A stretch of DNA of 57,261 nt, filler included, from Candidatus Woesearchaeota archaeon (GCA_016188265.1; 4 parts of 4 records of this genome joined end to end with filler, not necessarily neighbours in it); one strand, 5' to 3'; shown: positions 24,814 through 57,049, counted from the first letter of the whole stretch. Notes: a model not told the origin generated them from the letters alone. Translations and numbers: made by a program.

Positions 24814-25661
24814 ATGCCTCAAATTTATTCTGCAACAAATGAAGCAGTACTAAGAAATATTCCTTCAGAAGCAGTTATCCTTGACGTAGGTTGCGGATCA
24901 GGATACTTAAGTAACCTCTTAAAACATAAAAAAAATATTGTATATGGTGTTGATTTTTCTGAAGAAGCAGTCAAATATGCACTACAAAGAATAGATTATG
25001 CAAAAATCATGGATGTTGAAACAGATGCGCTTCCTTTCAATAAAAAATTTGATGTTATTATTTTTGCAGATATTTTAGAACATCTAAAGCATCCTGAACA
25101 AGTGATTAAAAAATTTCTCGATTACTTAAAACCAGGGGGGAAAATTATTATTTCATTGCCTAACATTGCGAATTGGACTATTAGAATTAAACTTTTTTTT
25201 GGAGTTTTCAACAGGACTGAACCTGGAATTTTAGATAAGACGCATCTTCATTTTTACATGTCAAAAACTGCTATGACGCACGCTGTAGACTTCAGTCTGT
25301 AGATAGGATTAGCAGTTTTTGATCATGATCAAGAACTACTTAATCATTTAGTAGCTGTGTGTAAACACGCTACCTACTTTAGTAGGTAGTTCTTGACACA
25401 TTAAAATCTGCTAAAAAATTACTCACAGATTCTGGATTGCACATATTAAGAATTGATTTAAATCCAAACTTTATTTTAGAACCAACACGTTTTATATTAA
25501 GAAAAAAGCAAAAAAAATTTGCAGAATCCTGTGAAAAAGTTTTAAATTCAAAATTGTATAACATTTATAGAACTTTTATCTTACCTGTTGAAACTTTGAT
25601 GGCAAAAATGCTAAAAACACTTTTTGCATACCAGTTTGTATTTGTTTGCAGAAAACTTTAA
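24814..25661 (+). pseudogene. Class I SAM methyltransferase (glycan-associated type) split by a 140-bp insertion
   Basis: LDVGCGSG, DILEHL..P and GILDKTHLHFY|TLKSAKKLL.DSG. Deleting 25259-25398 restores one 235-aa frame ending ..FAYQFVFVCRKL. Confidence 0.9.
25259..25398. mobile_element. Modular palindromic element, copy 1 (two hairpin modules; no TSD)
   Basis: TGTCAAAAACTGCTA...TAGCAGTTTTTGATCA followed by TGATCAAGAAC...GTTCTTGACA, inserted within codon ACA. Confidence 0.9.
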
Positions 25662-25687
25662 ATATGCTTAAATAATCTCGATAAGTA

Positions 25688-25795
25688 ATGAAACGTAGTT
25701 CTCGACGTTGGAAGAAAAAAAGACAAATGCGTTGGAAATGGCAACGCAAACGGATTAAAAAAGAACGCAGTAAGCGTAAAGCTAAAGCTTCGTAA
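25688..25795 (+). CDS. rpl41e: Ribosomal protein L41e (eL41/eS32), 35 aa (not in the ORF track)
   Basis: MKRSSRRWKKKRQMRWKWQRKRIKKERSKRKAKAS matches the archaeal L41e pattern. Confidence 0.88.
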   Translation: MKRSSRRWKKKRQMRWKWQRKRIKKERSKRKAKAS

Positions 25796-26657
25796 ACCAA
25801 TGATTAATATTTAATCTACCTTCTTCAACAGCATCAGTCATTCCTTTATTTTTAACAATATTTTTACAATAATTCCAAATAACTTGTTCATTATTATTTC
25901 TCAAAAACATCCAAACATCAAATGCTGTTTCTTTTTCAGAACTAACAATAGCAATTACTTGATTAGCTGCAAGGTATTGATCTTTATAAAGCAGTTCATC
26001 AAAATTATCACAATACTTTTTAATATAAAAAAAATAATTTGCTAAATTATGTGAAAAAGAATAATTTTTTCTAATATTCAATTCACTTGCAACATATAAT
26101 GAAAAGCTTTCTGCACTTGCTTCTCTGCATATTCTTGATTTCTTACTTAATATGTATTTCATATAAGAAAGAGAATGATCTGTATGATGCCCGAATTCAT
26201 GAGTTATACTGCTAAAAAGATGTTCCTTGTCTTGTGATACATATATTTTAGGGCTTAAATAAATTCCTCCAGTTCTCTCGCTTAAAAATAATGGATCAAA
26301 ACCGTCTTTAATCAAATCAAAAACACTGGCATTATTACGTTTAAAAATATGAAAGTTCTTATTACTATATTTTTCATTTGAAATAATAGAAAGAAAATCT
26401 AAATAAAGATAAAATAATCTTTCTTCATTATACTTCTCATTAGATAAACTATATTTCTTAATTGTTTTATCGCGATAACAATTCCAATCAACATTTTTTA
26501 ATTTCTCCTCTAAAACTTTTTTCTCTTCAGAATTTAAGTGATTGTGATTTTTTATTGGAATTGTGCACCCTGAAAATCCAAAAGCCAAACCAATTCCTAG
26601 AAAGAAATTTGATAACTTTTTTCTTTTTTTTCTGATTAAAACTTTTTTATCCATCAC
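25782..26657 (-). CDS. Putative lipoprotein with zincin HEXXH motif
   Basis: Basic N-terminus, hydrophobic stretch and FSGC lipobox; THEFGH...EASAE. Confidence 0.7.
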   Translation of the reverse strand: MMDKKVLIRKKRKKLSNFFLGIGLAFGFSGCTIPIKNHNHLNSEEKKVLEEKLKNVDWNCYRDKTIKKYSLSNEKYNEERLFYLYLDFLSIISNEKYSNKNFHIFKRNNASVFDLIKDGFDPLFLSERTGGIYLSPKIYVSQDKEHLFSSITHEFGHHTDHSLSYMKYILSKKSRICREASAESFSLYVASELNIRKNYSFSHNLANYFFYIKKYCDNFDELLYKDQYLAANQVIAIVSSEKETAFDVWMFLRNNNEQVIWNYCKNIVKNKGMTDAVEEGRLNINHWFTKL

Positions 26658-26848
26658 TAAATTAAAATATTCCTGATATAAATATCTTCTCTAACATGGT
26701 AATTATTAATTGGTAATTATTAATCGAAAGCTTTATTAAGAAGCAGTTAATTCTACAAATAATCAACACCCAGCTGGAATTCAACCCAGCAATTTATTCT
26801 ACCTCGGGAAAACTGAGGCAACTATCAATAATGATGATAGTATGAGTG

Positions 26849-26885
26849 CTAGAACTAAGTTCGTGCACGAAAGAAATTTCCTGTG
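26849..26885. repeat. Short double-hairpin repeat (CTAGAA..TTC-GTGCAC-GAAA..TTTC-TGTG family)
   Basis: Same architecture as 56936-56987. Confidence 0.55.
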
Positions 26886-26970
26886 CTATTGTCAATTCTA
26901 AGAAATAATTAAAAAAAAATGATGCGGCCCTAAAATTCTCTTCGCGGCAGAAAATCAAGAGAATAAAAAA

Positions 26971-28235
<1,265 letters not shown>

Positions 28236-28335
28236 NNNNNNNNNNNNNNNNNNNNNNNNNNNNNNNNNNNNNNNNNNNNTTAATTAATTAANNNNNNNNN
28301 NNNNNNNNNNNNNNNNNNNNNNNNNNNNNNNNNNN
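28236..28335. other. Artificial contig linker
   Basis: N-run with TTAATTAATTAA. Confidence 0.97.
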
Positions 28336-29262
28336 TAATAATTGTGCTGGAATAACAAACCAAGCGCCGAATTTCAAAGCCAACAAAAACGCTAAAGGTA
28401 TTAGCGCTGTACCAAATGAAGTAATTACTGCAACAGGTTTATCTCCATAAAGATCACAAATCTTGCCCATGTGTCTCTGAGCCAATAATTTTGTAATAAT
28501 TTGCAAAGCAGTTAACACCCCAAACCAAGCATAAGATATGCCTAAAGTTTTGATCATGAATATTGAAAAAAAAGGCGCTGCAAGCATGTAACCAAAATTA
28601 AATACAGCAACAAAAATGCTGAATTTTATTACTTTCTTATCCATTATAAAGAAATCCTTTAATTTATGGTGCTGGCTATCTTCATATTTTGGTTCTTCAA
28701 CATGTAAATAAAGAATAAATGATGACACTCCAATAATAGCCCCCATTAAAAACATTCCTGAAAATCCTTGAATTGTTGGAAATAACATTAAGAATTGCCC
28801 TCCAATTACTTGTCCTAATGCTCCAAGAACACCCATAAGCATCAAGCGTTTACCAAAGTAACTGCCGCGTGTTTTTTCTGGAACAATATCTCCTAAAAAA
28901 GAAAACCATGCTGGATCTGAAACATAGTCAAGTAAGCAAAGTAAAAAATAAGTGATTATTATTGTTAATAAAACATTTTCTTTTAACAATATTGGCGCAA
29001 CAGCAATAACAACCCATAAAATTCTAATTGCAGTTGAAAACATAATTAATGATTTCCTAGAAAAGTAATCTAATAGTTTTGCTCCTGGAAGCTCTGCCAG
29101 CAAAGCACCTATGTACGGTATTGATCCTATAAGCCCAATTACTAAATTAGAAGCTCCTAAAGAAAGAGCAAATAATGATAAAAAAGTAGAAGTAAGCGCA
29201 TTATACAAAGACCAAATTCCTCCCGTATAAACAAAATACTTTATTTCTTTTTCAAAGCTCAT
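28336..29262 (-). CDS. MFS transporter, 3' truncated by gap
   Basis: Multiple TM helices; G.LLD..SRK; PE..RG.YFG.R; G.ICD.YG.K. Confidence 0.9.
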
Positions 29263-29852
29263 GGCAGTGTGATCAGCATTCCATCAGGGCCTGGATTAAC
29301 AACCTTAGTTATGCTGATAAAATCCTCTTTTTTTGCTGTTTCATGAAAATGACCGCAAATACCTAAAACAATATTCTGATTTTTTTTAATAAATTCAGTA
29401 TAAGAAATATTGCCATTATGATGTCCATGTATATAATCTATTTTTGTATTATAAAATGGAGCATGCGCTATAAATACCAGTTTAGGTTTGTTCCAATCTT
29501 GTTTGCCAACCCATTGTTCAAATTGTTTATCATGTATACTAAATCCCCCGCCACCATAACCAAAAAATGTATAACCATTAAAATGAAAAAATCTTTTGTG
29601 CAAGAAAATAACATTCTTGTAAGGTTCGCAGGCTTTTCTTGCAACCTGCTCGGTTTCATGATTTCCATGAATCAATAAAACACACTCCCCCATATCACTA
29701 ATCTTTTTCATTACAACATTAATATTTTGTTCAAAAATAGTAAAATCCCCTGCGCACACAATCACATCAGGCTTAGAAAGCTCAATTTTTTGAAGCATTT
29801 TCTTATACAAGCCCATATCTGCATGCCAGTCAGCAAAAGCAAAAATTTTCAT
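29259..29852 (-). CDS. Calcineurin-like metallophosphoesterase (Icc-related)
   Basis: DWH, GDF, GNHE, H.P, GHFH and NPG. Confidence 0.92.
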   Translation of the reverse strand: MKIFAFADWHADMGLYKKMLQKIELSKPDVIVCAGDFTIFEQNINVVMKKISDMGECVLLIHGNHETEQVARKACEPYKNVIFLHKRFFHFNGYTFFGYGGGGFSIHDKQFEQWVGKQDWNKPKLVFIAHAPFYNTKIDYIHGHHNGNISYTEFIKKNQNIVLGICGHFHETAKKEDFISITKVVNPGPDGMLITLP

Positions 29853-29940
29853 ACTAGTATTAAATAAGATATTAAATATAAGTATTGCTATTTTAGTAGG
29901 TAGTTTTTTGACAATTCAACCAGTAAAGAGTATTTATAAA

Positions 29941-31131
29941 TCACCCTCCAACAGTACTCCAGTAATCTTCTAAAACATAAAAGTCAAGATTTTCTATTTC
30001 TTTGACATTAATAAACCTGCCTTCACCAAGCTTGACAATTTGTTCTGCAAACTTTTTTCCATTTTGATCTAGTTGAATGCCTAATAAAGAAACAGTAATA
30101 CCATTAGCTCTTGCAAAAGAAATTGCTTTAAGAGTTTCTTTTTCAGGCTCTTCGCCAACAGTTGGTAAAGCATCACTAAGAATTATCAAGTGCTTTGCAC
30201 GATTATCAGCAGGAAATAACTCAATTGCTCTTTCAATCATTGGAACAAATTGAGTCTGCATTGATGCGCGTACTTTTGTAATTGCTTGAAGCAGATAACC
30301 GAAATCTTGTGTAGGCTCAACAACATCTTTAACATCTTTGCCAAAAACAATCAAGCCAACATCATCCTTTTCCTGAACTGCTTGAAATGCAAGAGCAACA
30401 CCAGCTCTTTTACACATCTCAATTTTTTTACCTTTCATACTAGCAGAAGCATCTACAGCATAAATTAAAGTTATGCTGCCTTTTCTTTCTCTTTCAAAAG
30501 TTTTCAAATCACCAATCTGAAGAAAATCTCGTTTTCTCTTAATAGCTGTTTTAATTGTTTGACGAATAGCAATATTTCTATACAAATCACCTTTTCTATA
30601 TGCCCGCACTGCAACAGGTTCGCCATGGTGCGCTTTTTCTTTTTTCCCCTTCATACCTTTAAAGCCTCTCATTAAGTGCTCTAGTTCTTTAACCAATAAA
30701 ACAATTGATGCTAACTGCACCCCTTTTTGAGTAAACACATTATTATCATCCATTAATCCATGACTATGCATTTCTTCTTGTTTTTCACTAATATTTTTCT
30801 TCAACAATTTTTGAAATTCAGGAATACGAATATTTTTTTGCAAATAATTGCCATTAAAACCAGTAATTAACTGCAGTAATTTTTCGCCATATAACTGTTG
30901 TATTGTTGAATAATTCTTAACTAATTGCTCAAATAATAAATCAGGAGTAAAACCACCAATACCTCTATTTGCAGCTTCTTCAACAATCTTCCCATCATCA
31001 ATAGTTTTTTTATCAGCTTCAAGAACAGACTTCATTAATGCAGGATCAATGCTATTAGAGAGTTTTCCTTCAATTTCTTCTGCTTTTGAAAGCTCTTTAA
31101 CCTCTTTTTCAAGGTCAAAGACTACCACCAC
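29941..31131 (-). CDS. vWA-domain protein (ChlD-like)
   Basis: MIDAS motif DASASM, LSDALPT; overlaps the AAA gene. Confidence 0.88.
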   Translation of the reverse strand: MVVVFDLEKEVKELSKAEEIEGKLSNSIDPALMKSVLEADKKTIDDGKIVEEAANRGIGGFTPDLLFEQLVKNYSTIQQLYGEKLLQLITGFNGNYLQKNIRIPEFQKLLKKNISEKQEEMHSHGLMDDNNVFTQKGVQLASIVLLVKELEHLMRGFKGMKGKKEKAHHGEPVAVRAYRKGDLYRNIAIRQTIKTAIKRKRDFLQIGDLKTFERERKGSITLIYAVDASASMKGKKIEMCKRAGVALAFQAVQEKDDVGLIVFGKDVKDVVEPTQDFGYLLQAITKVRASMQTQFVPMIERAIELFPADNRAKHLIILSDALPTVGEEPEKETLKAISFARANGITVSLLGIQLDQNGKKFAEQIVKLGEGRFINVKEIENLDFYVLEDYWSTVGG

Positions 31132-32113
31132 CGAGTTCAGAGTGGTCTTTACTAAATTCAGAAAATTCTTTTTGCAGGAATTCTTCAGGAGTTTGTAAAA
31201 ACTTAACTGATGGTTTTAAGGTTATCCTATGAGCAAGCACTGAAATAACAGCATTTGCAATATCTTCAACACTAACTTTTTTTCTTCCAGCAATCAATGA
31301 ATTAGCTTGTGCACGCTCATATAAACCAATAGTTGCGCGAACACTTGGTTTTTTCACCAAGTCTTTATGCTCTCTCAGCAATCTTATAAATAATATTGTT
31401 ACTAATAATAAGTTAGAAGGAAACTGTACACTTGTTTTTTCACCTTTTTCAAGAACAATCTTTTGTTCAATCTCAATGTTTTCAGGATAACTCATATGAA
31501 TAGTATCAAAACGATCAAGAAAAACATCAGACAATTTTTCAGTTGCAGCAGTTTCTTCAGGATTCATTGTTGCAATTAAAATAAAATTTGCAGGAAGATC
31601 AACAGTATAACTGCCTAAAGTTGCTTTTCCTTCTTCTAACACCTGCAACAAACCATTCTGCACTTTTTCAGGGCAACGATTAACTTCATCAAAAAACAAA
31701 ACACCATTATTAGCCTTAAAAATTTTTCCAGGAGTAAAAGCTTCAATACTTGCAGGACCAAATTTCAAAGCCTTAACAGGATCAATATCCCCTATCAAAT
31801 CCTCAGAAGTTAAATCAGGACTGCCTTGAACACGAACAAACAATTCTTCACCAGAAAATTTTTTAGCACTTGGTTTTTTAGTTCTGCAAGAAGGGCATAC
31901 AGGATTATCTGGAGAGCAATGAAATTCACAGTCATTAAGGGTTTGCGGAGGAAAAAGTTTGGCAACATTTTTAGCAAGAGTAGTTTTTCCAACACCAGGA
32001 GGGCCGACAATCAAAACATGCCGATTCATTAAAAGAGCAGACTTTAATTGCTCTTTAGTTCTTTCCTGCCCAATGATATCATTAAATGCTGCTTTGATGA
32101 ATATTTCCTGCAT
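31115..32113 (-). CDS. MoxR/ChlI-like AAA+ ATPase
   Basis: GPPGVGKT, FFDEVNR, ATMNPEE and DRF. Confidence 0.92.
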   Translation of the reverse strand: MQEIFIKAAFNDIIGQERTKEQLKSALLMNRHVLIVGPPGVGKTTLAKNVAKLFPPQTLNDCEFHCSPDNPVCPSCRTKKPSAKKFSGEELFVRVQGSPDLTSEDLIGDIDPVKALKFGPASIEAFTPGKIFKANNGVLFFDEVNRCPEKVQNGLLQVLEEGKATLGSYTVDLPANFILIATMNPEETAATEKLSDVFLDRFDTIHMSYPENIEIEQKIVLEKGEKTSVQFPSNLLLVTILFIRLLREHKDLVKKPSVRATIGLYERAQANSLIAGRKKVSVEDIANAVISVLAHRITLKPSVKFLQTPEEFLQKEFSEFSKDHSELGGGSL

Positions 32114-32151
32114 AAGCTTGCTGAGAAGATGGTAGATTATAAAAAGGTTGC

Positions 32152-32628
32152 TTAAGAAGAATGGTGTTTCTCAATGTGATTTTGGAAATCTTTTCTTAAA
32201 TCTTTGAATTTGTATTTTATTGATGTTTTTATTTTTAATTTTAACAATCCCCAACTTATTAGAAACAATATTATAAAATGCGCTGGAAAAATAACAGAGT
32301 GGAATAATAAACTATAACCAGTAACAATATACCTGATTTGCAATAAAAAAACTGTGATTGTTGTTGCAACTAATGTTTTATGTAAATAATTTAATTTCTC
32401 AAATATTAATATAGAAATAAAAAAGTAAATTGTTCCAAAAATAATCTTGTTGCTAAAATACCCCGGAGGAACACTTAAGCTCCAGTGAGCTTGATGAACA
32501 AGCCAATCAATAAGCGTAAATAATAAAATAATTACAAATGATGCTAAAAACTCAAAAAAAATCTTCTTCCAACTTAATAACCTGGCTGCTCCCATCTGCG
32601 TTGTTCTGGACTGCCCAAAGATTCCCAA
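32152..32628 (-). CDS. Integral membrane protein (start uncertain)
   Basis: About four hydrophobic helices. Confidence 0.65.
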   Translation of the reverse strand: MGIFGQSRTTQMGAARLLSWKKIFFEFLASFVIILLFTLIDWLVHQAHWSLSVPPGYFSNKIIFGTIYFFISILIFEKLNYLHKTLVATTITVFLLQIRYIVTGYSLLFHSVIFPAHFIILFLISWGLLKLKIKTSIKYKFKDLRKDFQNHIEKHHSS

Positions 32629-33040
32629 TCTTCAAGAAGCGAAGGATCAACTTCTCTAGGATCAAGACATGCACCTGCAGAACAAACAGAAGTTAAAACA
32701 GGACAAGGCTTTCTCATCCAAGAAGCTTGCTTGCCATCAACACAATAATATTCTTTAAGATAACAATATCTTCCTTTACACTTATCCACTTCATGGCCTG
32801 TCCAATCCATACAAGTATCAACTCCTTGCAAATTAAATGCTACTGTAGTTCCACGAACATGAGAATCTTTGCCATCATCAGTTTCATAACATTTATACAA
32901 TAATTTATCTTGAACTGTTGAACCTGTTAAATTTGGCGTTAATACAACTAATAAAGATGCAAGAGCAAGAATAACAACTGCTCCTAAAACACTCCACTCA
33001 TTCAATAATTTCTTCATCTTGATAACCTTTTTTTCCATTT
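32574..33040 (-). CDS. Membrane-anchored Cys-rich protein (C..TD.G.....G...D.C....EYYC module); start uncertain
   Basis: TM helix and TG motif followed by CYETDDGKD..VRG...D.C...LKEYYC...C...C..GAC. Confidence 0.75.
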
Positions 33041-33468
33041 TTAAACGGTAAATAACATTGTAATTGATTAGGAGGACAAGGAGGAAAAACATAAGATCCT
33101 TCTTCACTATCAACAGCACAAGACTGAACTGCTTGTTCTCTGGTTTCAGGGCATCTTATCTGTCCATGTTCTGCCATTCTAACAACATCACAACAAACAC
33201 GAACATAAGGATTAACTGCTGGTTCTTTGTAAGGAATAAACCATTTGTCAGTGCTACGAACATATTGCTGTCCTTGAGGCCCTTGATTAGCACCATATCT
33301 ATAATTATTCTCAACACTTTCTTGCATTTCTTTACTTAAAGGCTGTCTAGTAAAAAATTGTGAGCCAATTTTTGTATAATAACCTGTTTTTGCATCAAGC
33401 CCTACAAATAATATGAATAATAAAGACACTACAAGTATTCCTAAACTTGCAAGATAATATTTTTCCAT
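32998..33468 (-). CDS. Secreted/membrane-anchored Cys-containing protein
   Basis: N-terminal TM helix plus TG motif; six Cys in the C-terminal half. Confidence 0.7.
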   Translation of the reverse strand: MEKYYLASLGILVVSLLFILFVGLDAKTGYYTKIGSQFFTRQPLSKEMQESVENNYRYGANQGPQGQQYVRSTDKWFIPYKEPAVNPYVRVCCDVVRMAEHGQIRCPETREQAVQSCAVDSEEGSYVFPPCPPNQLQCYLPFKNGKKGYQDEEIIE

Positions 33469-33794
33469 TATTTTCTTTTTTTCCTTTTTTTTGCTGCTTT
33501 TTTCTTATGAGCTTCTTTATGCGTTAATGCAAGTTTTGTTTTTTTCATTACCTTTTTTGCAAGCCTAGCAGCTTTTTTCGCTTCTTTACTTACTTCAGAC
33601 TTAAAAAAATCTTCAAACCTTTTACTTTCGCTACGAGCTTCACACAAAACACTGCCTAATAGTTTCTTTGCTTCACCAGCCGACAATAATCCTTCTTTTT
33701 GAAGAGATCTAACAACTGCTTCAGCTTCACGTTTTGTATAACTAACGCTTCTTAAACCTAAAGAGCAAGCTTTCTTCAACCATTCTAATAACAT
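33468..33794 (-). CDS. Phasin-like protein with Lys/Ala-rich tail
   Basis: GL......E..V..L..EG.LS..EAK.L pattern, directly downstream of the ubiB-like gene; GAGGTGA SD. Confidence 0.75.
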   Translation of the reverse strand: MLLEWLKKACSLGLRSVSYTKREAEAVVRSLQKEGLLSAGEAKKLLGSVLCEARSESKRFEDFFKSEVSKEAKKAARLAKKVMKKTKLALTHKEAHKKKAAKKRKKRK

Positions 33795-33874
33795 TAAACT
33801 CTCACCTCGTTTAACAACATTAAATCATGTTTTTACCTATATAAATCTTCCTGTTTCTTTCTTGGATTTGTAAT

Positions 33875-35551: not shown

Positions 35552-35616
35552 ATATTGATTTTTCTAGTTTATTAATTTTTTTATATCTTCATTAAATTGG
35601 CAAGAAATAAATATTT

Positions 35617-35729
35617 TGAAACGTCAGAAATCGCCACTTGCAATCTCCCTGCTTCAGCTCGGAGTAAGAGGGCGATTTCTGAGCGTGATCAAGAACACGT
35701 CCCGGGCTTTGGCCCGGCGGTTCTTGACA
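35617..35729. mobile_element. Modular palindromic element, copy 2
   Basis: TGAAACGTCAGAAATCGCC...GGCGATTTCTGAGCG followed by TGATCAAGAAC..CCGGGC TTTG GCCCGG..GTTCTTGACA. Confidence 0.8.
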
Positions 35730-35785
35730 TAAAAGATTGTGTTTTTGCAAAAGCTTATTAAAACATTACTTTCTTCAATAAATGT

Positions 35786-45027: not shown

Positions 45028-45035
45028 TTTATAAA
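45028..45035. promoter_or_regulatory. Palindromic TATA box, possibly bidirectional
   Basis: TTTATAAA about 22 nt before the rio1 ATG and a similar distance from the structured region on the minus strand. Confidence 0.5.
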
Positions 45036-45056
45036 TCTTATGGTTTATTAAATATT

Positions 45057-45776: not shown

Positions 45777-45796
45777 CTAATTTGTGAATTTTAGAA

Positions 45797-48002: not shown

Positions 48003-49071
48003 ACAATTAGAAAAACTAAAAGAACTTGGAAATGACATAATTAAAGATATTGACAAAAATAAAAATCCATCAATTGACGTGCCTATTAGAACACTGGCAA
48101 ATGTTCAGTTTAATCAAAAAACAAAAAAGTTAGAGCTAGGGAAAAAGTCAGCAAAAAGATTCTTCTTCAATGTTGGACATGCCAAAAAATTCCTTCAAAC
48201 ACTTGCAGTTGCATCTGTAAGCAAAGAACTGCTAGGACTGGACAAAAATGCGCATTTAAGAGATGTTTTTTACAGTATTAAAAGAACAATCCCAAATACT
48301 GATGTTAATATTGTTGACGAACAAAGCGAATCAGATAAAGCTATTGAAGATCTAGAATTAATCAGTGATTTGTCAAGAGAACAATTGCACATAACTGCCA
48401 ACAAAGCAGGATCAGTAGTTGGAAGTGTGGTAATAGAAGATGATGGCGACATAATTGATTGGTCAAAATTAGGAAGCGGAGGATGGAGTATTCCCTCAAC
48501 AGTTGAAAAAGTGAAATTCAAAAAAGTAAATGCAAAATTTGTTCTCTACATGGAAAAAGCAGGAACTTGGGAGCGTTTAAGAGAAGACCGTTTCTGGGAA
48601 AAACAAAAATGCATAATCGTGAGTTCTCACGGACAAACAACCAGGGGAATAAGAAGACTTTTACAAAGGCTCAATCAAGAACATAACTTGCCAATATATG
48701 TACTTGCAGATTTTGACCCTTGGGGATTTTATATTTATTCAGTATTAAAATTCGGATCTATTAATCTAGCTCATGCTTCAGAAACAATGGCCTTGCCAAA
48801 AGCCAAATTTTTAGGCATTACTGCAGATGACATAGAAAAATACAATCTTAAAAAACATTTTATCAAAATGAAAGAAATTGATTTTACAAGACTAAAACAA
48901 ATCATGAATTATGAATGGTTCAAAAACAACAAAGAATGGCAAAGACAATTTAAACTAATGAATAGCTACAAAGCAAAAGTAGAAATTCAATCATTATCAT
49001 CCAGAGGAATTACATTTATTTCTGAAAAATACTTGCCTGAAAAAATTAAAGAAGCAAAATTCTTAGACTAG
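47992..49071 (+). CDS. top6A: DNA topoisomerase VI subunit A
   Basis: LRDVFY, EK, G....R and DFDPWG. Confidence 0.96.
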   Translation: MTNKQLEKLKELGNDIIKDIDKNKNPSIDVPIRTLANVQFNQKTKKLELGKKSAKRFFFNVGHAKKFLQTLAVASVSKELLGLDKNAHLRDVFYSIKRTIPNTDVNIVDEQSESDKAIEDLELISDLSREQLHITANKAGSVVGSVVIEDDGDIIDWSKLGSGGWSIPSTVEKVKFKKVNAKFVLYMEKAGTWERLREDRFWEKQKCIIVSSHGQTTRGIRRLLQRLNQEHNLPIYVLADFDPWGFYIYSVLKFGSINLAHASETMALPKAKFLGITADDIEKYNLKKHFIKMKEIDFTRLKQIMNYEWFKNNKEWQRQFKLMNSYKAKVEIQSLSSRGITFISEKYLPEKIKEAKFLD

Positions 49072-49108
49072 AAAAAGACAAAATTAAGTTATAGAAATAG
49101 TTTGTCTT

Positions 49109-49239
49109 TGTCAAGAACCTACTTACTAAAGTAGGTAGCGTGTTTACACACAGCTACTAAATAATTAAGTAGTTCTTGATCACACCAAGATTCCAGTACT
49201 AAACCACTAGTGAAACAATAGTGGAATCTTAGTGTTTCA
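49109..49239 (-). mobile_element. Modular palindromic element, copy 3
   Basis: The reverse complement of 49109-49182 matches 25326-25398 with about three differences. Second module: TGAAACACTAAGATTCCA...TGGAATCTTGGTG. Confidence 0.88.
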
Positions 49240-49255
49240 ATATAATTAAGGATAA

Positions 49256-49354
49256 TACTTAACTTTGCCACTTCATCTGACTAAGTAGTAAGTTTAGAAT
49301 TCCATTATTATTTTTTCACAGTTGTATTTACTTTTCACGTGGTAAAGTTAAGTA
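49256..49354. mobile_element. 99-bp MITE with 16-bp TIRs and a 4-bp TSD
   Basis: TACTTAACTTTGCCAC ... GTGGTAAAGTTAAGTA (15/16), flanked by ATAA on both sides. Confidence 0.7.
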
Positions 49355-49427
49355 ATAATATAATTTACTTATGTCCTCAATTAGATATTAAAAAGGTTTT
49401 TAAATAAATCAAACATAATAATATAAC

Positions 49428-50318
49428 ATGCCAATTGATATTACTCAAACGCTTCTTCCATTTTTGAAATCTTTTAGCACAGGATTAATTGTTTTTACAA
49501 TGATTATTCTTGGAATAATAATATATTTTAATGTGAAAAAGAAGTGTGGTTTTTTTACAACATTATACAAATGTTTTAATCTTTCAGAATATGCTTCTTT
49601 AAAAGATTATTCTATTGGCCAAAGCTTAGGATTTTATGCTTTGCTGATTATTTTATTTTTATTAGTTGGTTCAAGTTTGTTTTTTGTTGCTTTAAGTATT
49701 TCTCTCCCATCATTATTAACAACAGAACTGCCTGAAATAAGCATAACAAACGGCGTTGTAAGTCTTGAGCAGGATCCATATATTGTTGAAAATATTTTTT
49801 ATGCATCAACCCTTGACTTTGATTATAAAACAAGAGAAGAACCTTTAGTGCTTACAAAAACACAATTAGTAATTCGTGATAGAAACAATATAGAAGTTCA
49901 GGATTTAGCTGGTATAAGTTTTTTTAATTTAAGTAATATTATGCCAAGATTGCCTAAGCTCTTAATAACTTTTTTTGTTATAGGCTTAATTGCAGTGGGT
50001 TTTATATTATTTGTTTACTATTTAGTTTATTTCTTGCTTTTATCCCTTGTTTTAATGCTTAATAATTTATTTTTTAAAAGAAACTGGTATTATTCTCAAT
50101 ACTTTAATGTTGCATTGTTTAGCAGCATACCTATATTGCTTATAATAAATGTTTTGTTTTTATTTATTCCAAGCACTGCATTTTTGCCTACAATAATTCA
50201 ATTAATACTGCTTAGCTGGCTTACATGGTGGCTTTCAGCTCCAAAACCAACAGTTGAAGTATCTTCAATAAAGTTTAGAAAAAGACAATTTCAGAAACCT
50301 TTTCGCAGAAGAAGTTGA
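49428..50318 (+). CDS. DUF1189-like membrane protein
   Basis: TM helices flanking an extracellular loop P.I.I.NG; Y.....VAL....P. Confidence 0.75.
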   Translation: MPIDITQTLLPFLKSFSTGLIVFTMIILGIIIYFNVKKKCGFFTTLYKCFNLSEYASLKDYSIGQSLGFYALLIILFLLVGSSLFFVALSISLPSLLTTELPEISITNGVVSLEQDPYIVENIFYASTLDFDYKTREEPLVLTKTQLVIRDRNNIEVQDLAGISFFNLSNIMPRLPKLLITFFVIGLIAVGFILFVYYLVYFLLLSLVLMLNNLFFKRNWYYSQYFNVALFSSIPILLIINVLFLFIPSTAFLPTIIQLILLSWLTWWLSAPKPTVEVSSIKFRKRQFQKPFRRRS

Positions 50319-50854
50319 ATTTTTTTACAAATAACTGGCTTTTTATTTTTTGCAACATACCTGTAAGGCAGGATTACGCTTTCATTTTTATCTGTCTGTA
50401 TTTCAGGTTCGTCAATAAAATTAATTTCTTGCAATCTTTTACCATCAACTATCATTTTAGTAACAAGAACTGCAGTGTCAGTGCTCATTTGTTTTGGTCC
50501 TAACTTTCTTTTTTCACAATTTAAGTTTTCAGATAATATTCTGGTTCTTCCTTCAGCCGGAGCATTGCCAAGAATGCCTCCAAAAATAAAGTAATTAAAA
50601 TTTTTAGCTTCATTAGGAGTTAATTCTTTTTTAGCTTTAGGATCTAAAAGGCAGGAGTTTTTCAAATTTAATTGAATTACAGATTTATTTTTTGTAATGC
50701 CTAAATTTTTTATTTTGTCAGAACAATTCTGTGGTGAATTTAGGTTAGTAAACCAAACATTTTTTTTGCCAACAATCTTAGATGTGTGCTCATACTCAGC
50801 CAGACACCAAGCCCATAATTTTGGCTCAAGATGTTCAATAATAAATATTGGCAT
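50291..50854 (-). CDS. SPOUT methyltransferase, Sfm1/DUF431-like
   Basis: IIEHLE, LLDP.A...L, FGGILG, LG..QM.TD.A and LPYRY. Confidence 0.88.
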   Translation of the reverse strand: MPIFIIEHLEPKLWAWCLAEYEHTSKIVGKKNVWFTNLNSPQNCSDKIKNLGITKNKSVIQLNLKNSCLLDPKAKKELTPNEAKNFNYFIFGGILGNAPAEGRTRILSENLNCEKRKLGPKQMSTDTAVLVTKMIVDGKRLQEINFIDEPEIQTDKNESVILPYRYVAKNKKPVICKKIQLLLRKGF

Positions 50855-50855
50855 A

Positions 50856-51053
50856 TTATAACTTTCTAAATTCAGAGACTATTTCAAGTAAATCTACTTG
50901 CCCTAAAAACATAGTACGGCAACAATATCTTTCAATAGAAAGTTCATCCATTACTGTTTTAGGATTTTCTCCTTTCTCAGTACGTTCTTTGTACTTTTCC
51001 CAAAGATGTGCTATTGGTTTTCCACAAGTCCAACACCTGATTGGTATTATCAT
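50856..51053 (-). CDS. rpoN: RNA polymerase subunit N (Rpo10)
   Basis: MIIPIRCWTCGK...RYCCR; true start at 51053. Confidence 0.97.
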   Translation of the reverse strand: MIIPIRCWTCGKPIAHLWEKYKERTEKGENPKTVMDELSIERYCCRTMFLGQVDLLEIVSEFRKL

Positions 51054-51060
51054 TTTTTGA

Positions 51061-51456
51061 TCACCTGTACGATTTCTGCTGTTTTGCACGAGCTTTCCCA
51101 TGCCTGTTTGGTTTATGTGTTTCTTTTTGGCGTACATCTGCAACAAGTAATGTTCTATCATATTTTGAAAATTCTTTTTGCAATTTTTTATTATACTGAA
51201 ATAGTGCTTTTGCAATTGCTAAACGAGCAGCATCTGCTTGACTATTAATCCCGCCACCATTAACTTGAACCATAATATCTACTTTCTGAGCAGATTCTCC
51301 TGCAAGTAAAAAAGGTTCACTTATACGTATCTTATAAACTTCAGGAGTGTATGTATCAAGTAGTTGAGTATTAATTCGGACAACACCATTGCCTTCTTTT
51401 AAAAATGCTTTTGCAATAGCGCTTTTGCGATTTCCTGAAGCTACAATTGTTTTCAT
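51061..51456 (-). CDS. rps9: 30S ribosomal protein S9
   Basis: G.RK.A.A, GGG..SQA.A and QKSYR. Confidence 0.97.
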   Translation of the reverse strand: MKTIVASGNRKSAIAKAFLKEGNGVVRINTQLLDTYTPEVYKIRISEPFLLAGESAQKVDIMVQVNGGGINSQADAARLAIAKALFQYNKKLQKEFSKYDRTLLVADVRQKETHKPNRHGKARAKQQKSYR

Positions 51457-51881
51457 TTATTTCCTCCGAGATACTTGCAGACTTGTTGAACAGATACAAA
51501 TTTAACAAATTTTCTTTTTGTTGAATCAGCCACTGAGGGCAATATTGCTTTTTTACCTTCAAATTCAGAAGGCACACTTCTATAACACATTATTCTCTTA
51601 AAAGCATCCCTGCCACGGCCTTGTTTATGAGGAAGCATTCCACGTATTACTCTTTTCAAAAATCGTTCTGGTAAACTTGGAATAAATGGACCTTTTTGAG
51701 GCCTTCCAATTTCACTTTTTCTTAACCTATATTTTTCTGCAACTACTTTAGGATCTCCTGAAAATAAAGCCTTTTCACTATTTAAAACAACTACTGAATT
51801 GCCAAGTAAGGCCTGCTTTGCTATGTAAGAAGCAAGTCTTCCTACAATTGCATTTGTTGCATCAATTATTAGTTCTGCCAT
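51453..51881 (-). CDS. rpl13: 50S ribosomal protein L13
   Basis: IIDA....GRLAS and RGMLP. Confidence 0.97.
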   Translation of the reverse strand: MAELIIDATNAIVGRLASYIAKQALLGNSVVVLNSEKALFSGDPKVVAEKYRLRKSEIGRPQKGPFIPSLPERFLKRVIRGMLPHKQGRGRDAFKRIMCYRSVPSEFEGKKAILPSVADSTKRKFVKFVSVQQVCKYLGGNK

Positions 51882-52246
51882 TATCCTATTATCCTTATAT
51901 TTTTTCCCTGAGGGTTTTGTTTAAGCAATTCTCCAATTGTTAAACATTTGCCTTTTGCTTGTTCTATAATGTTTCTTGCTGATTGTGAAAATGTTAATGC
52001 TGCAATAACTAAAGGATGATCTAATGAACCGCTTCCTAAAACTTTTCCAGGAACAATAACAGTTTCATTATTTTGAGTATGTCTGTTAAGTTTTGAAATA
52101 TTAACTTCTCTTCTTTGCCTTGAAGGTTTATTTAAATCAAAGGCAATGCGTTTCCAAAAATCTATTTTGTTAACACTTGCTTCCTTTTGCAATACACTTA
52201 TTAAACTCAGTATTTGCTCATTTGTTGATCCTGTTCGTTTAACCAT
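51881..52246 (-). CDS. rpl18e: 50S ribosomal protein L18e
   Basis: VPGKVLGSG and FS..A...I...G. Confidence 0.97.
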   Translation of the reverse strand: MVKRTGSTNEQILSLISVLQKEASVNKIDFWKRIAFDLNKPSRQRREVNISKLNRHTQNNETVIVPGKVLGSGSLDHPLVIAALTFSQSARNIIEQAKGKCLTIGELLKQNPQGKNIRIIG

Positions 52247-52266
52247 TGTATTTATCTACTAATAAA

Positions 52267-52352
52267 TGCAGGGGAAGGGATTTGAACCCTCGCACCCACT
52301 AAGGGACAAGGCCCTCAACCTTGCGCATTTGACCAGACTCTGCCACCCCTGC
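52267..52352 (-). tRNA. tRNA-Leu(GAG)
   Basis: Acceptor stem GCAGGGG/CCCCTGC, anticodon arm CAAGG-TTGAGGG-CCTTG, long variable arm and TTCAAAT T-loop. Confidence 0.95.
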
Positions 52353-52360
52353 AAATTTGT

Positions 52361-53137
52361 TTATAATTTTTCTTCAAGCTCTTTTATCTGTTTTTGGAAT
52401 TGTTCAAGAGCTGAACTTAAAATTTCAGAGGGGTTTAACTGGCCCCAAGGTTCTATGTTAAACATAAAAGTTTTTCCATCATATTCTAATTTAATAACAT
52501 CCTCGCATACTCCTTCTACAGCATCAAATAAATTATTATCAATGATTGCTTGTTTGTCAACTTTTCCATCTTTAACAGCCACGCTTGGAATGCGAGCTTT
52601 GCACTCTTCTAATTTTGAACTTGAATTGTTAACAGTTACTTTTGGGTATTCAAAATACCAGCATAGTCCAGGACTCCATTTTACATGGTTCTTACCTTGG
52701 CCTAGAACAGCTGTTGCTTCAATTTCAAGTTCTTGCCCTTTTGTCAGAACAGTCAATAATGTATCAGGATATACTGGCACTATTTTTGGATCTTTAGATT
52801 TAAGATCTTTTGCATAAACATTTCCAGGACCTTTTGCTTTAAGAGTAAGAATAACTGTACACCTATTGCATCCTGCTCCATTGCATTTACACTCTTGAGG
52901 CAAAGTGTATGCTTTAAGATCTGTTTTAAGAGTTATAAGCCCTAACCTATGAGCAATTTGTTCATCATATAATGCAGTGTTATTTTTACGAAACTCAACA
53001 TCTTCAATAGCCATTGTTGGAACAGATTCTATGCTAAATCTTCTCAAAGTATTAGCTATAAAATGTGTTGCATCTTTTAGTAAAAAGTTAACACGCCCTG
53101 TTTTTTTATCTTTACTCACTAATTGAATTGTTGTCAT
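52361..53137 (-). CDS. rpoD: RNA polymerase subunit D (Rpo3)
   Basis: ANTLRR, VPTMAI, AHRLGL and H.KWSP. Confidence 0.97.
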
Positions 53138-53535
53138 ACTCTTCTACCTCTACGCCCGCCTTTTTTTCTGCAGCCTCCATGCGGTACTGGTGTAACATCT
53201 TCAATAATTCCAATTTTAAATCCAGCACGTGACAGTGCCCTTATTGCTGCTTGTGCTCCAGGCCCTGGAGTTGATGGCCCATTGTGGCCGCCTGGTGCGC
53301 GAACTTTAATATGAAGCCCACTTACCCCTTTATCATGTAATTGTTCTGCAACTCTTTTAGAAGCCATCATTGCTGCAGTAGGTGAGCTTTCATTTCTATC
53401 AACTTTAACAACCATGCCACCACTAGCTCTTGCTAATGTTTCTGTACCTGTAATATCAGTAACATGAATAATTGTGTTATTATAAGATGAAAAAATACGA
53501 CATACAGCCCATATATGGTTTTGCTGATTTTTCAT
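53134..53535 (-). CDS. rps11: 30S ribosomal protein S11
   Basis: [16 protein letters not shown] and DVTP.PH. Confidence 0.97.
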
Positions 53536-54065
53536 GTTTTAGCACCTTTAGTTTTTACACTTCTTTCAGGGTGGTCTGGATTTGATAGTGCTGATCTAGG
53601 ATCAAATTTTATATGCTGTTCTTCATCAATACGCACAAGATATGATGGTGATGATACTGTTTTATCTTTAACTTGAACATGCTGGTGTGTTATTAATTGT
53701 CTTGCTTGTTTTGTAGAACGTACAAGCCCATTTTTAACAACTAATGTTTGTAATCTTCTATTAAGAACGTCTTTCACGCTTAAGCCTAAAACAGTATCAA
53801 GTTCAATTTTTCCTTTCAAAACACCAAGACTTTGAAGCTTATCAAGAAGTTGTTTTTTTTCTTTTTCAGACTGTTCGCTTCTTGCTGCAATAAGATTTTT
53901 TGCTTGTGCAGTAAACTGTTTTAGTATACTTGAAGACTTCCATAGTTCTCTTTTATTCTTAAGTCCAAACTCTCTCAAAATAATTGCTTCATCTTCAATA
54001 CGTTTCTTTTGCCAAGGATGTGATGGCTTACTATATTTTTTCCTAAGTTTTTTAATGTCGCCCAT
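53532..54065 (-). CDS. rps4: 30S ribosomal protein S4
   Basis: P.HPW, GLKNKRE, RRLQT and ARQLI.H. Confidence 0.97.
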
Positions 54066-54544
54066 TATACTCTTCCTGATTTACCAGCTTTTGATTTTAC
54101 AACACCAAGTTTTGCCTTGCCTTTATTTGCACGGAAATTACTTCTAGTGCGCTGACCGCGAACTGGCTGGCCTAGAGTGTGCCTTATTCCTTTGTAAGAT
54201 TTGATTTTCTTCATTTTTTTAATATCATCTTCTCTTGATAACTGCAATGGTATTGTAACAAGATGTTTATCAGCACCAGTTTCAGGATCTCTTCTACGAT
54301 TATAAAGCCATGTTGGAATTTTAGACTTGCTTGGATCTAAAATTGTTTGCTCAATTTTTTTAATTTGATCCTGAGAAAGCAGGCCTAACTTTTGTTTTGG
54401 ATCAATATTATTAACTTGCAAAACTGCATGTGCAAAATTAAAGCCAACACCTTTTATTTTATTCAAAGCACACATAACTCCTTTTTTCCCATTTAAATCT
54501 GTGTTGACAATACGTATTAACTGTTTAATTTCTTGTTCTGCCAT
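54065..54544 (-). CDS. rps13: 30S ribosomal protein S13
   Basis: IKGVG, P.WL.NR and G.RH..G.PVRGQRT. Confidence 0.97.
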   Translation of the reverse strand: MAEQEIKQLIRIVNTDLNGKKGVMCALNKIKGVGFNFAHAVLQVNNIDPKQKLGLLSQDQIKKIEQTILDPSKSKIPTWLYNRRRDPETGADKHLVTIPLQLSREDDIKKMKKIKSYKGIRHTLGQPVRGQRTRSNFRANKGKAKLGVVKSKAGKSGRV

Positions 54545-54689
54545 TTTTATTAAAACAACTTTGAGAAGTTCATTAGAACCCTCAATCGCCCCTCTAAGGA
54601 CTCGGGATTAAAGACGAGAAATCAGAGGGTATTTATAAATGTTACGGGTAAAAACATTTTTATACCTAATAAAAATTCTTCTACTCTAT

Positions 54690-54761
54690 GGCGGCAATAG
54701 TTTAGTGGTAGAATGCAGGACTGTGGATCCTGAGGTGGGGGTTCGATTCCCCTTTGCCGCT
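54690..54761 (+). tRNA. tRNA-His(GTG), G-1 genomically encoded
   Basis: Acceptor stem GCGGCAA/TTGCCGC; CAGGA-CTGTGGA-TCCTG; GGGG-TTCGATT-CCCC. Confidence 0.95.
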
Positions 54762-54776
54762 TTTGTTGAACTGATG

Positions 54777-55292
54777 TTAAAAACTTATTTTTTTGTTGTG
54801 AATTATTATTAACTTGTGAACTAGAAAAGGAAGTACAAAAGCGCTGATATAAAAAATTCCAACAATCAAAGGATTTTGCGGTCCAACACTAGTATACAAG
54901 GCTTCTGCAAATTTATTAGATAACTTGACAATCAGTACAACATTTATCAAAGCAACACTAGGAATAAATAATCCTGCAATAATTATTTGATGTGTTGCTT
55001 TTTCAAAAAGCCAAATTATTGTTTCAAAAAGAGTTCCAAAACATAAGCCAAGAAGCAATAATAAAGTTATAAGGTAAAAACCACTCACTAAAAGCAGTAT
55101 TGGAACCATAATAACTGAGCTAAATAAATTTCCTAAAATAACAACTAGCAATGCAAAAATGTAAGTAATTGCTCCTCCTAGCTTAATACTTTTTGCATGC
55201 TGTTTTTCCCCTCTTTTTAAAACTCGAAACACTTGAGAGATTTCTTCTTCTGTCCAACTTTTTTTTTTAAAATTTTCAGTCTTCATTTTCAC
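54777..55292 (-). CDS. Membrane protein
   Basis: About four TM helices. Confidence 0.75.
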   Translation of the reverse strand: MKMKTENFKKKSWTEEEISQVFRVLKRGEKQHAKSIKLGGAITYIFALLVVILGNLFSSVIMVPILLLVSGFYLITLLLLLGLCFGTLFETIIWLFEKATHQIIIAGLFIPSVALINVVLIVKLSNKFAEALYTSVGPQNPLIVGIFYISAFVLPFLVHKLIIIHNKKISF

Positions 55293-55758
55293 CTTTCAAA
55301 TAAATTTCAACATATTTAATAAATTCTTTTGTTTTTTGAAAATAATCCTGGACAATATCAATAGTTACTTCAACTTTTTTCCCATCAACATACGCAGTCA
55401 TTGTAACATGCCTTCTAAATTCCAAAGCTCTTTCATATTCTGACTTGTCAAGTTTTCTTAAAATAAGATAAAATTCTTCAAATTTAGGAATTACTTCATC
55501 ACTTGCAAAAGCTTCATTTATACTATCAACACGAAGGCGTGGAAGTTCAGGAATGCTCTTAATTTTTCCTTCTTGTTTTATTTTAATTAAAAGTGCTTCA
55601 TTAACACAAGAAATAGCATTGATAAGCCTTTCAATAATAGATTTAATAACATCAACTGTACGTGTATATTTTAAACTGACAAATAATAAATGATCTGCAC
55701 GCCCTAATTCTTTTTTTGCACGATCCAGTGCTTCATCAACAGAAATAACATTTTCCAT
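55276..55758 (-). CDS. Hypothetical protein (ADHL..VSLKYTRT motif)
   Basis: Probable start MENV at 55758, after a TATA-like element. Confidence 0.75.
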   Translation of the reverse strand: MENVISVDEALDRAKKELGRADHLLFVSLKYTRTVDVIKSIIERLINAISCVNEALLIKIKQEGKIKSIPELPRLRVDSINEAFASDEVIPKFEEFYLILRKLDKSEYERALEFRRHVTMTAYVDGKKVEVTIDIVQDYFQKTKEFIKYVEIYLKGENED

Positions 55759-55838
55759 TTTAACAATAAGAGTAATAAACTGAAGTATATAAATTCTTAC
55801 GTGAATCAGCAAAGTCCAGCTTTTTACACTCTGTTAAT

Positions 55839-56171
55839 TCAAGATTGAAGCTCTAAAATAGCACTAGCCAAATCACCTTTATGCTTCTTAATTGCTTCTT
55901 CTGCACTTTTTTTGTCAGCTCTAGTTTGTTCCATTACTGTTTTAACATCTTCTTCTGAAATAGAAACAGTTCTAGAACGTTCTTCTGGAGTTCCAACAAT
56001 CTGATAACTAACTTGGCCCATCATGTCAACTTTGCTAATCTGAGGATTATTAAATACTAATTCTTTATCTTCTAAAACAATAATAACTTGTTGAGCTTGA
56101 AGCTCATCTTGTTTAATTCCTAACTTCTTCATGGCTTTTGCCATTTCCCTAGGATTAAGGCCTGGAATCAT
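55839..56171 (-). CDS. nac: Nascent polypeptide-associated complex protein
   Basis: PR.M..AM.KLGI, SYQI.G and a UBA-like C-terminus GDLA.AI. Confidence 0.95.
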   Translation of the reverse strand: MIPGLNPREMAKAMKKLGIKQDELQAQQVIIVLEDKELVFNNPQISKVDMMGQVSYQIVGTPEERSRTVSISEEDVKTVMEQTRADKKSAEEAIKKHKGDLASAILELQS

Positions 56172-56344
56172 TGTAATCCCAACAAAGAAGGTCCGATTGA
56201 ATGAAGTATTAACATAACAATGATTATGAAAACAGCTAAAACAATAATATGAGTAGGTTGAAATTCAATTCTACTTTTGTATTCTTCAAAAAATCTAGTA
56301 ATCCCTGCGCTAGCAGCAGGCATAGATATTTTTTCTTGCGCCAT
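56168..56344 (-). CDS. secG: Preprotein translocase Sec61beta/SecG (58 aa; not in the ORF track)
   Basis: MAQEKISMPAASAGITRFFEEYKSRIEFQPTHII plus a TM helix; ATGA overlap with nac. Confidence 0.9.
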   Translation of the reverse strand: MAQEKISMPAASAGITRFFEEYKSRIEFQPTHIIVLAVFIIIVMLILHSIGPSLLGLQ

Positions 56345-56592
56345 GATAATAGGTTATAAAGCAATGGTATAAAAATGTTGTGTTAATTAAACTTTGCAGT
56401 TCGCCTTTGGTTCACAGCAAAAGTTTAGGTCTAGATTTATTTAAAAAAGTGTATAAAATCTCGCTTTTTATCGCGAATTAGGCCATTAAGTGAATATTTA
56501 TCCTGCTTAATAGTTGTTAAGCAAAATTCAGGCGGCGAGCTAAACTAATGCCAAATCAAAGATTTGAAGAAATAATAGAAATAGGTTGGCGT

Positions 56593-56847
56593 CTATAATT
56601 GTCTTCTAACTTCTTCTAGAGGTTTTACAAGATTTGCAGACAAATAAGCATCAAGAACACTTGTATCTGAAACAACACTATATGGTTGCACTTCTGAAAG
56701 TAATGGTGCTTGATTTACTTCCGCAGTAATATCTACTGCAACTTTCGCACCAGAATCATAAAGAATATGATGGTCGATATTATCTATATTTCCTAAATCA
56801 TACATTTCTGCTTGTGTTACTTTAATTCTAAATAATTTTCCTTCCAT
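56593..56847 (-). CDS. Hypothetical protein
   Basis: 84-aa ORF with upstream TATA. Confidence 0.55.
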   Translation of the reverse strand: MEGKLFRIKVTQAEMYDLGNIDNIDHHILYDSGAKVAVDITAEVNQAPLLSEVQPYSVVSDTSVLDAYLSANLVKPLEEVRRQL

Positions 56848-56915
56848 GTGATTTAGTATTTTATTAGTTTTTATAAATATTTCTGAAATGCGCGCTAGGA
56901 TTTTTAATCATTATT

Positions 56916-57049
56916 TTAAACACTAAGATTCCACACTAGAAAATCGAAGATTTTCTGTGCACAGAAAATGCGTTGCATTTTCTTGTGAACCACTGGATGC
57001 TGAAACCGAAGTTTCATGCCACTGGTTTATTGACCGGTGGTTCTTGACA
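56916..57049. mobile_element. Modular palindromic element, copy 4, with nested double hairpin
   Basis: Left end AAACACTAAGATTCCAC (17 nt) is identical to copy 3; right end GGTTCTTGACA; nested hairpins at 56936-56987. Confidence 0.78.

What the first reader, a model, noticed from the sequence alone, without database searches (positions are those of the whole stretch)
25259..57049. Family of modular palindromic elements with extrahelical bases: candidate undescribed ssDNA-hairpin mobile system
Seen: four 113-140-bp elements (25259-25398, 35617-35729, 49109-49239, 56916-57049) on three separate contigs. All end in GTTCTTGACA. They begin with TGAAAC, TTAAAC or TGTCAA, and three have a central TGATCA junction. 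Whole hairpin modules are reassorted: copies 1 and 3 share a 73/74-nt module but differ in the partner module; copies 3 and 4 share a 17-nt left end; copy 2 has the same arms around a different GC-rich interior. Most stems have one unpaired base near the foot (TGaTCAAGAAC vs TGTCAAGAAC; CGcTCAGAAAT vs CGTCAGAAAT). Established: conserved arms, a variable loop and an extrahelical base are how integron attC sites and IS200/IS605 or REP (HUH/RAYT) ends are recognised as folded ssDNA. Inference: these are non-autonomous, combinatorial REP/BIME-like units mobilised in trans by an enzyme not encoded in this window. I cannot tell whether the family has been described.
Basis: partly seen in the sequence, partly recalled or inferred. 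Interest (0 to 1): 0.85.

Follow-up and report, generated by a model that had tools for sequence, protein, structure and literature searches.

The report
Fold-back IS200/IS605 mini-transposons of DPANN archaea
The four repeats are copies of a gene-less miniature "peel-and-paste" transposon common in tiny groundwater archaea; it picks its landing site by DNA base-pairing like known IS200/IS605 elements, but its ends carry extra fold-back stems that appear to choose one more base of the target.

Summary
The four elements are real. The family has at least 35 right ends in this 0.92-Mb genome and occurs in 45 of 301 genomes of the order. It is not a REP/BIME or attC system but a gene-less (PATE-like) IS200/IS605 element. 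Empty alleles in the same genome show precise insertion 3' of a host tetranucleotide. That target matches a 4-nt guide inside the left end by the IS608 rule in 34 of 53 left ends (shuffled mean 8.2). Copy 4's right end is 34/37 identical to the end of an autonomous tnpA element. What I found nowhere described: an outer stem with one extra base folds over each cleavage site, and the foot of the right stem covaries with the boundary base on both sides (T foot: A; C foot: G in 13 of 16), so the stem seems to help choose the target. Left and right modules reassort. No Y1 transposase was found in this assembly, and the enzyme for copies 1-2 is unidentified. The scan noted this family earlier on other contigs and filed it near REP/BIME or MITEs.

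The parts
25258..25397 (+). Copy 1: complete mini-element, left module 25258-25325, right module 25326-25397
   Evidence: fold
25254..25257 (+). Host target tetranucleotide of copy 1 (TTAC); matches the guide at 2 of 3 read positions
25279..25282 (+). Left guide of copy 1 (CACG), 5' of the inner hairpin
25366..25369 (+). Right guide of copy 1 (CACG), predicts the terminal TGAC
24814..25661 (+). SAM-dependent methyltransferase gene interrupted by copy 1 (162-aa truncated frame; 235 aa without the element)
   Evidence: Pfam
35621..35728 (+). Copy 2: complete mini-element (left 35621-35685, right 35686-35728) between an ABC1-kinase gene and a type IA topoisomerase gene
35617..35620 (+). Host target of copy 2 (TGAA), full match to guide CAAT at 35641-35644
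49110..49235 (-). Copy 3: left module of the autonomous-clade type (guide GATT, 7-nt linker) joined to the right module of copy 1
49236..49239 (-). Host target of copy 3 (TGAA), kept in the empty allele at G000:C25:41995
49069..49383 (-). A different, AT-rich hairpin repeat (family C, with a second nested repeat) into which copy 3 is inserted
56920..57048 (+). Copy 4: deletion derivative of the 176-nt type; lacks the left inner hairpin and the outer arm of the right module; carries a 54-nt paired-hairpin insert; right end 34/37 identical to an autonomous IS end
56916..56919 (+). Host target of copy 4 (TTAA)

Best explanation
These are gene-less IS200/IS605-family elements (PATE-like): a left end and a right end fused directly. 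A Y1 HUH transposase (TnpA) made elsewhere is inferred to peel the top strand out as a single-stranded circle and to paste it 3' of a host tetranucleotide chosen by base-pairing with a 4-nt guide in the left end. Shown from sequence: polarity, precise insertion, guide-target match, kinship of one end type with autonomous tnpA elements. The family's own feature is an outer fold-back stem with one extra base on each end. In the circle the two stems stack into a dumbbell whose central 4-bp helix spans the junction; the foot of the right stem pairs with the base just after the cut, and so selects a fifth target base (covariation shown; mechanism inferred). New left/right combinations most likely come from tandem or nested insertion followed by deletion at the shared central palindrome (inferred).
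For: Filled/empty pairs inside G000 with no gain or loss of bases: copy 3 against C25:41995 and similar empty family-C copies; copy-2 type nested in the long type, filled at C3, C8:18865, C11 and empty at C8:37198, C17:20895. Left flank has a motif, right flank none, in 104 two-module elements; no duplication of 3-9 bases above chance. Guide matches target at all three read positions in 34 of 53 left ends, shuffled mean 8.2, 0 of 20000 shuffles; 4 of 53 in the register shifted by one; 15 of 25 within G000. CAYG stands 28-30 nt before the end in 51 of the 59 right modules that have it. Autonomous elements with a TnpA above the NF033573 cut-off (L337, L331) end in nearly the same right end as copy 4; the long-type left end matches the left end of L290 at 30 of 37. 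Base after TGAC: A in 35 of 35 right ends in G000 and 79 of 79 T-foot matches in five genomes, but A 12, T 12, G 4 in 28 autonomous ends; with a C foot it is G in 13 of 15 and G on both boundaries in 13 of 16 (two of the 16 are one locus). Circles of copies 1 and 2 fold as dumbbells.
Against: No Y1 transposase in G000. Co-occurrence is weak: candidate clade in 5 of 16 against 40 of 285 genomes, p 0.07; any Y1 19 of 102 against 26 of 199, p 0.23. No tnpA gene was found between a wrapped left and a wrapped right module. The ends of copies 1 and 2 and the right end of copy 3 have no close partner among 160 tnpA loci. 72 of 131 right modules lack the CAYG guide and 46 of 99 left modules got no guide call. 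The outer stem buries the right cleavage motif (first three bases unpaired with probability at most 0.13 in copies 1-3), which a standard TnpA complex would have to open. No cleavage, circle or transposition was observed.
Confidence: 0.85

Rival explanations
1. Derived from IS200/IS605 ends, but now moved by a different, specialised or domesticated single-strand enzyme (a RAYT-like analogue or a host enzyme) that reads the outer bulged stems; the inner hairpins are partly vestigial.
For: Outer stems and the extra base persist when interiors have decayed; modules related to different IS200 clades are swapped; copy-rich genomes such as G000, G004 and G081 have no Y1 hit; the stem foot covaries with a host base.
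Against: The left guide still predicts the target, which is the TnpA mechanism; no recurring gene lies next to the elements; guide-less copies seen twice in one genome were mostly segmental duplicates with shared flanks, not separate insertions; in Haloquadratum, PATEs also show fresh insertions where every tnpA is broken (PMC3119063).
Confidence: 0.25
3. attC-like cassette sites or other folded substrates of a tyrosine recombinase; or MITEs of a DDE transposase with TG...CA ends.
For: The folded circle is a near-dyad duplex with two extra bases on one strand; G000 has two tyrosine-recombinase hits and an IS3-type orfA fragment; TG-foot copies look as if they had terminal inverted repeats.
Against: No cassette genes or arrays; no multi-base duplication; the left foot varies freely if paired (five pair types); the guide-target rule has no place in either mechanism.
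Confidence: 0.04
4. The outer stems are kept by selection for a host role (RNA stability, termination) after insertion and have nothing to do with movement.
For: Many copies lie next to gene ends and keep stems around decayed loops.
Against: One of the two boundary bases is host-derived, yet both follow the stem foot; orientation to neighbouring genes is mixed.
Confidence: 0.12

Closest known systems
PATEs (palindrome-associated transposable elements) of Haloquadratum walsbyi (PMC3119063) and PATE-like elements of Geobacillus stearothermophilus (PMC10055086)
   Same: Gene-less, near-terminal palindromes related to IS200/IS605 ends, no multi-base target duplication, short target kept at the left, terminal-only forms, nesting with other small repeats, activity where the host's tnpA is missing or broken.
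   Different: Outer fold-back stems with a conserved extra base over both cleavage sites; a boundary base set by the right stem's foot; reassortment of left and right modules; no room for an omega-RNA (about 55-180 nt for simple copies); DPANN hosts. I did not read the PATE end tables in the supplements of PMC3119063.
IS608 and ISDra2 (IS200/IS605 Y1 transposons; PMC3201880, PMC5934647)
   Same: Guide 5' of a subterminal hairpin pairs with the cleavage motif; left cut about 19-21 nt from the guide in one type; right motif 8-10 nt behind the hairpin; ISDra2 also reads the +1 base by pairing.
   Different: In ISDra2 the +1 partner lies in the left end at the position equivalent to the third guide base; here copies with the same guide (CACG) have +1 A with a T foot and +1 G with a C foot, so the partner is the right outer stem. 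No tnpA or tnpB.
Autonomous IS200-type elements of the L337/L331/L249 TnpA clade
   Same: Same right end as copy 4 and same left-end type and 7-nt linker as copies 3/4.
   Different: Their cleavage motif lies outside any outer stem in most cases and the next base is free.
REP/BIME with TnpA(REP) (PMC8266576, PMC6006769)
   Same: Paired short hairpins, bulge, intergenic spread, HUH chemistry.
   Different: No fixed tag, polar insertion, no REPtron found.

Membership tests
PATE / non-autonomous IS200/IS605 | Too short to encode a transposase; palindromes near both termini | tested here: met
   108-140 nt, folds
PATE / non-autonomous IS200/IS605 | Precise insertion without multi-base target duplication, 3' of a short target kept on the left | tested here: met
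   a single boundary base is shared by both ends
PATE / non-autonomous IS200/IS605 | Guide 5' of the hairpin complementary to the cleavage/target motif | tested here: met
   34 of 53 left ends, shuffled 8.2; right guide in 59 of 131 modules only
PATE / non-autonomous IS200/IS605 | Ends related to those of an autonomous tnpA element | tested here: met
   met for copy 4's right end and the left type of copies 3/4; only weak likeness for copies 1, 2 and copy 3's right end
PATE / non-autonomous IS200/IS605 | No terminal inverted repeats | tested here: inconclusive
   TG-foot copies have near-inverted ends, C-foot-left copies do not; the likeness comes from the outer stems
PATE / non-autonomous IS200/IS605 | Strand-specific cleavage by TnpA and a single-stranded circle | not testable with these tools
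   only assembled contigs were available
REP/BIME with RAYT | Conserved GTAG-type tetranucleotide 5' of the palindrome | tested here: not met
REP/BIME with RAYT | tnpA(REP) gene flanked by the repeats | tested here: not met
Integron attC | Sites flanking gene cassettes in arrays near an integron integrase | tested here: not met
   dispersed copies, no arrays; the two PF00589 hits were not examined further
MITE of a DDE transposase | Target-site duplication of 2-9 bases | tested here: not met
   empty alleles

The most novel reading that the evidence does not exclude
A DPANN lineage of minimal single-strand transposons has turned IS200/IS605 ends into a self-locking dumbbell with a second DNA guide: the outer bulged stems are themselves read by the enzyme, splint the junction, add a programmable fifth target base and make left and right modules from different IS200 clades interchangeable, served by a still unidentified Y1-type enzyme acting much as RAYT does for REPs.
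Probability: 0.3. Interest if true: 0.78.

Novelty: new variant of a known kind. Interest (0 to 1): 0.55.

Why it matters
It names a repeat family that is widespread in DPANN archaea, breaks their assemblies and lands in or beside genes. [quoted passage not shown] The stems give a direct, small-scale test of how a TnpA handles a buried cleavage site, and a candidate enzyme clade is in hand.

Tried and rejected
Rfam: only rRNA and tRNA in the window. Enzyme in G000: no hit for PF01797, a local Y1 profile (best E 0.09), the clade profile, PF07282, PF01548, PF01541; the whole proteome was not scanned. No recurring neighbour gene among 421 ORFs near matches. Y1 loci of the order were mostly not flanked by these modules; two Y1 hits in element-bearing loci (L007, L063) were not followed up; L312/L313 and L345 hold a family copy just downstream of a clade tnpA, read as insertions. 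The strict junction pattern gave 10 loci, several in bacteria. Left modules not followed by T led to no tnpA. The clade was not found in viral contigs; copy 4 has no match in plasmids. My first register (cut after the A, six-base target) fitted the guide in 4 of 53 and was dropped. Guide-less copies as separately mobile: three of the pairs fetched share both flanks, no support. Orientation to genes and GC skew: no clear bias in 29 copies. Homologs of the methyltransferase were too distant to fix the boundary (offsets of 3 and 6 bases also keep the frame). No RNA holder listed. Contigs of four runs gave no clean empty allele for copies 3 or 4; a 170-base joint near copy 3 could not be interpreted. 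The unpaired-probability row for L331 hit the wrong site and is not used.

Full report
Observation. The four stretches are present as described. The window joins four contigs of a 923,817-base, 98% complete genome with an archaeal 16S gene. BLAST with 12 seeds gave 64 loci, fragments and other hairpin families included; 35 right ends were called by motif. The right-module pattern occurs in 12 of 41 relatives and 45 of 301 genomes of the order, against 1 for the reversed pattern (G155 and G231 in this tally are unpublished genomes). Of the 80 listed loci from the named collection, 64 are archaeal, mostly Woesearchaeota, Nanoarchaeota and Pacearchaeota.

Anatomy. The unit is a left module and a right module. 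Of 170 right modules, 132 had a left stem next to them and 104 a paired two-base foot; the foot is TG/CA 75, CA/TG 13, CG/CG 6, CC/GG 5, CT/AG 5 (a few symmetric copies are counted from both strands). One extra base at the third position is required: 98 of 163 against 0 without it and 0 in shuffles. The left flank carries a motif and the right flank none, so the element is polar.

Insertion is precise. Copy 3 sits in another repeat whose empty allele is at C25:41995, with similar junctions in other family-C copies. A copy-2 type element is nested in the long type at three loci and absent at two. Removing copy 1 restores a 235-aa methyltransferase frame, though offsets of 3 or 6 bases also keep it. 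Direct repeats of 3-9 bases are not above chance.

The IS200/IS605 link. IS200 loci of the order end in hairpins with a 4-nt guide that covaries with the terminal motif, as described for IS608, where guide bases 1 and 2 pair with positions -3 and -4 and -2 is unpaired (PMC3201880, passages; the pairing of base 4 with -1 is recalled and fits). Applied by a fixed rule to 99 left modules, 53 got a guide call; 34 match the host target at all three positions, against 8.2 in shuffles and 0 of 20000 reaching 34; per position 44, 41, 41 against 18.8, 19.8, 34.0; the register shifted by one gives 4. Some calls are visibly wrong and two G000 rows are one nested site, which does not change the result. 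Since the target is host DNA, this cannot be shared descent. Right modules carry CAYG, which predicts TGAC, in 59 of 131. A TnpA clade first seen in G308, G255, G122 and G118 was followed into 80 metagenome loci; L337 and L331 pass the NF033573 cut-off and end like copy 4 (34 of 37); the long-type left end matches L290 at 30 of 37 with the same 7-nt linker. The ends of copies 1 and 2 resemble other IS200 clades only in style; no close partner was found among 160 loci.

What differs. Each end is wrapped in an outer stem that covers the cleavage site: the first three bases of TGAC are paired in copies 1-3 (unpaired at most 0.13), mostly unpaired in L337, L315, L330 and L334, partly paired in L271. 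Folded as circles, copies 1 and 2 give a dumbbell with a 4-bp helix across the junction between two single extra bases. The base after TGAC is A in 35 of 35 G000 ends and no other base was found in five copy-rich genomes holding 79 A-ending matches, whereas autonomous ends show A 12, T 12, G 4 (that count searched for the predicted motif, so it tests the next base, not the rule). Right stems with a C foot have G there in 13 of 15 matches (the pattern excluded C; six other matches had G or A feet), and G at both boundaries in 13 of 16 parsed copies (L421 and L529 are one locus, six come from G194, L538 is from unpublished G155); T-foot copies have A at the left boundary in 84% of 104. The empty alleles hold that base once, so one copy is host-chosen. 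A +1 preference is known: ISDra2 pairs G+1 with a left-end base (PMC5934647, passages). Here copies with one guide differ at +1 according to the right foot, so the partner is the outer stem. Whether the cut is before or after this base cannot be fixed from sequence; the guide register and linker length favour before.

Reassortment. Nine left/right combinations occur among 25 G000 ends with both called, two of them parts of nested composites. The right end recreates a target, tandem and nested copies exist, and deletion at the shared central palindrome would give new pairs; this step is inferred, with repeat-mediated deletion described for PATEs (PMC3119063, passages).

Enzyme. None was found in G000, and co-occurrence is weak. 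The assembly breaks at repeats, and Haloquadratum C23 shows fresh insertions with all tnpA broken (PMC3119063), so absence is not decisive, but it is the main gap.

Literature. Nine searches of the held library listed no paper describing this family or PATEs in DPANN; I saw only listings and abstract starts for most. Read: abstract and introduction of PMC8266576; passages of PMC10055086, PMC6006769, PMC3201880, PMC3119063, PMC5934647. No supplements were read and ISfinder was not available; either could hold related ends.

Verdict. A real, widespread, gene-less IS200/IS605 family: works like IS608, is best filed as a PATE, and has an end design and a +1 rule I did not find described. New variant of a known kind, interest 0.55.

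Noticed in passing
window 49069-49383; G000 C25:41995, C22:64607, C17:16512, C15:24375, C11:21716 and others: A second, AT-rich two-hairpin repeat family (family C, 15 or more copies) that hosts copy 3; the composite with copy 3 inside stands at several outer sites and its contig has about three times the depth.
   Followed up: partly
window 49263-49354; G000 C10:42860, C22:62920, C1:25486: A third hairpin repeat (family D) nested in family C next to copy 3.
   Followed up: no
G000 C11:29430-29593, C19:29380-29538, C20:6316-6474, C22:60007-60169 and others: A fourth modular hairpin repeat (family E, about 85 + 75 nt), one copy followed directly by a family-A element.
   Followed up: no
window 56934-56987; G000 C2:26155, C25:39848; L045, L062, L070, L080: Short paired A/T-arm hairpins (family B, about 54 nt) inserted at the central junction or inside the right module in many genomes.
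   Followed up: partly
L507, L513: Sister elements whose right guide, terminal motif (TTAG) and outer arm have changed together.
   Followed up: no
L270, L278, L324, L341 and others: Autonomous elements of the candidate clade often have an outer stem around guide and hairpin that leaves the cleavage motif free, a possible forerunner of the wrapped ends.
   Followed up: partly
L312, L313: A complete family-A element inserted exactly at the right cleavage site of a clade IS whose tnpA frame is interrupted.
   Followed up: partly
window 57121-57209 (-): Rfam calls a tRNA that ARAGORN does not list, 70 bases from copy 4.
   Followed up: no
window 1480-1573: Exact 47-base tandem duplication.
   Followed up: no
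L001 (G000 C19:17577-20972): A partial tyrosine recombinase frame next to an IS3-type orfA fragment.
   Followed up: no
L180, L184: IS200 tnpA genes beside genes that look like parts of diversity-generating retroelements (by eye).
   Followed up: no
   Followed up: partly
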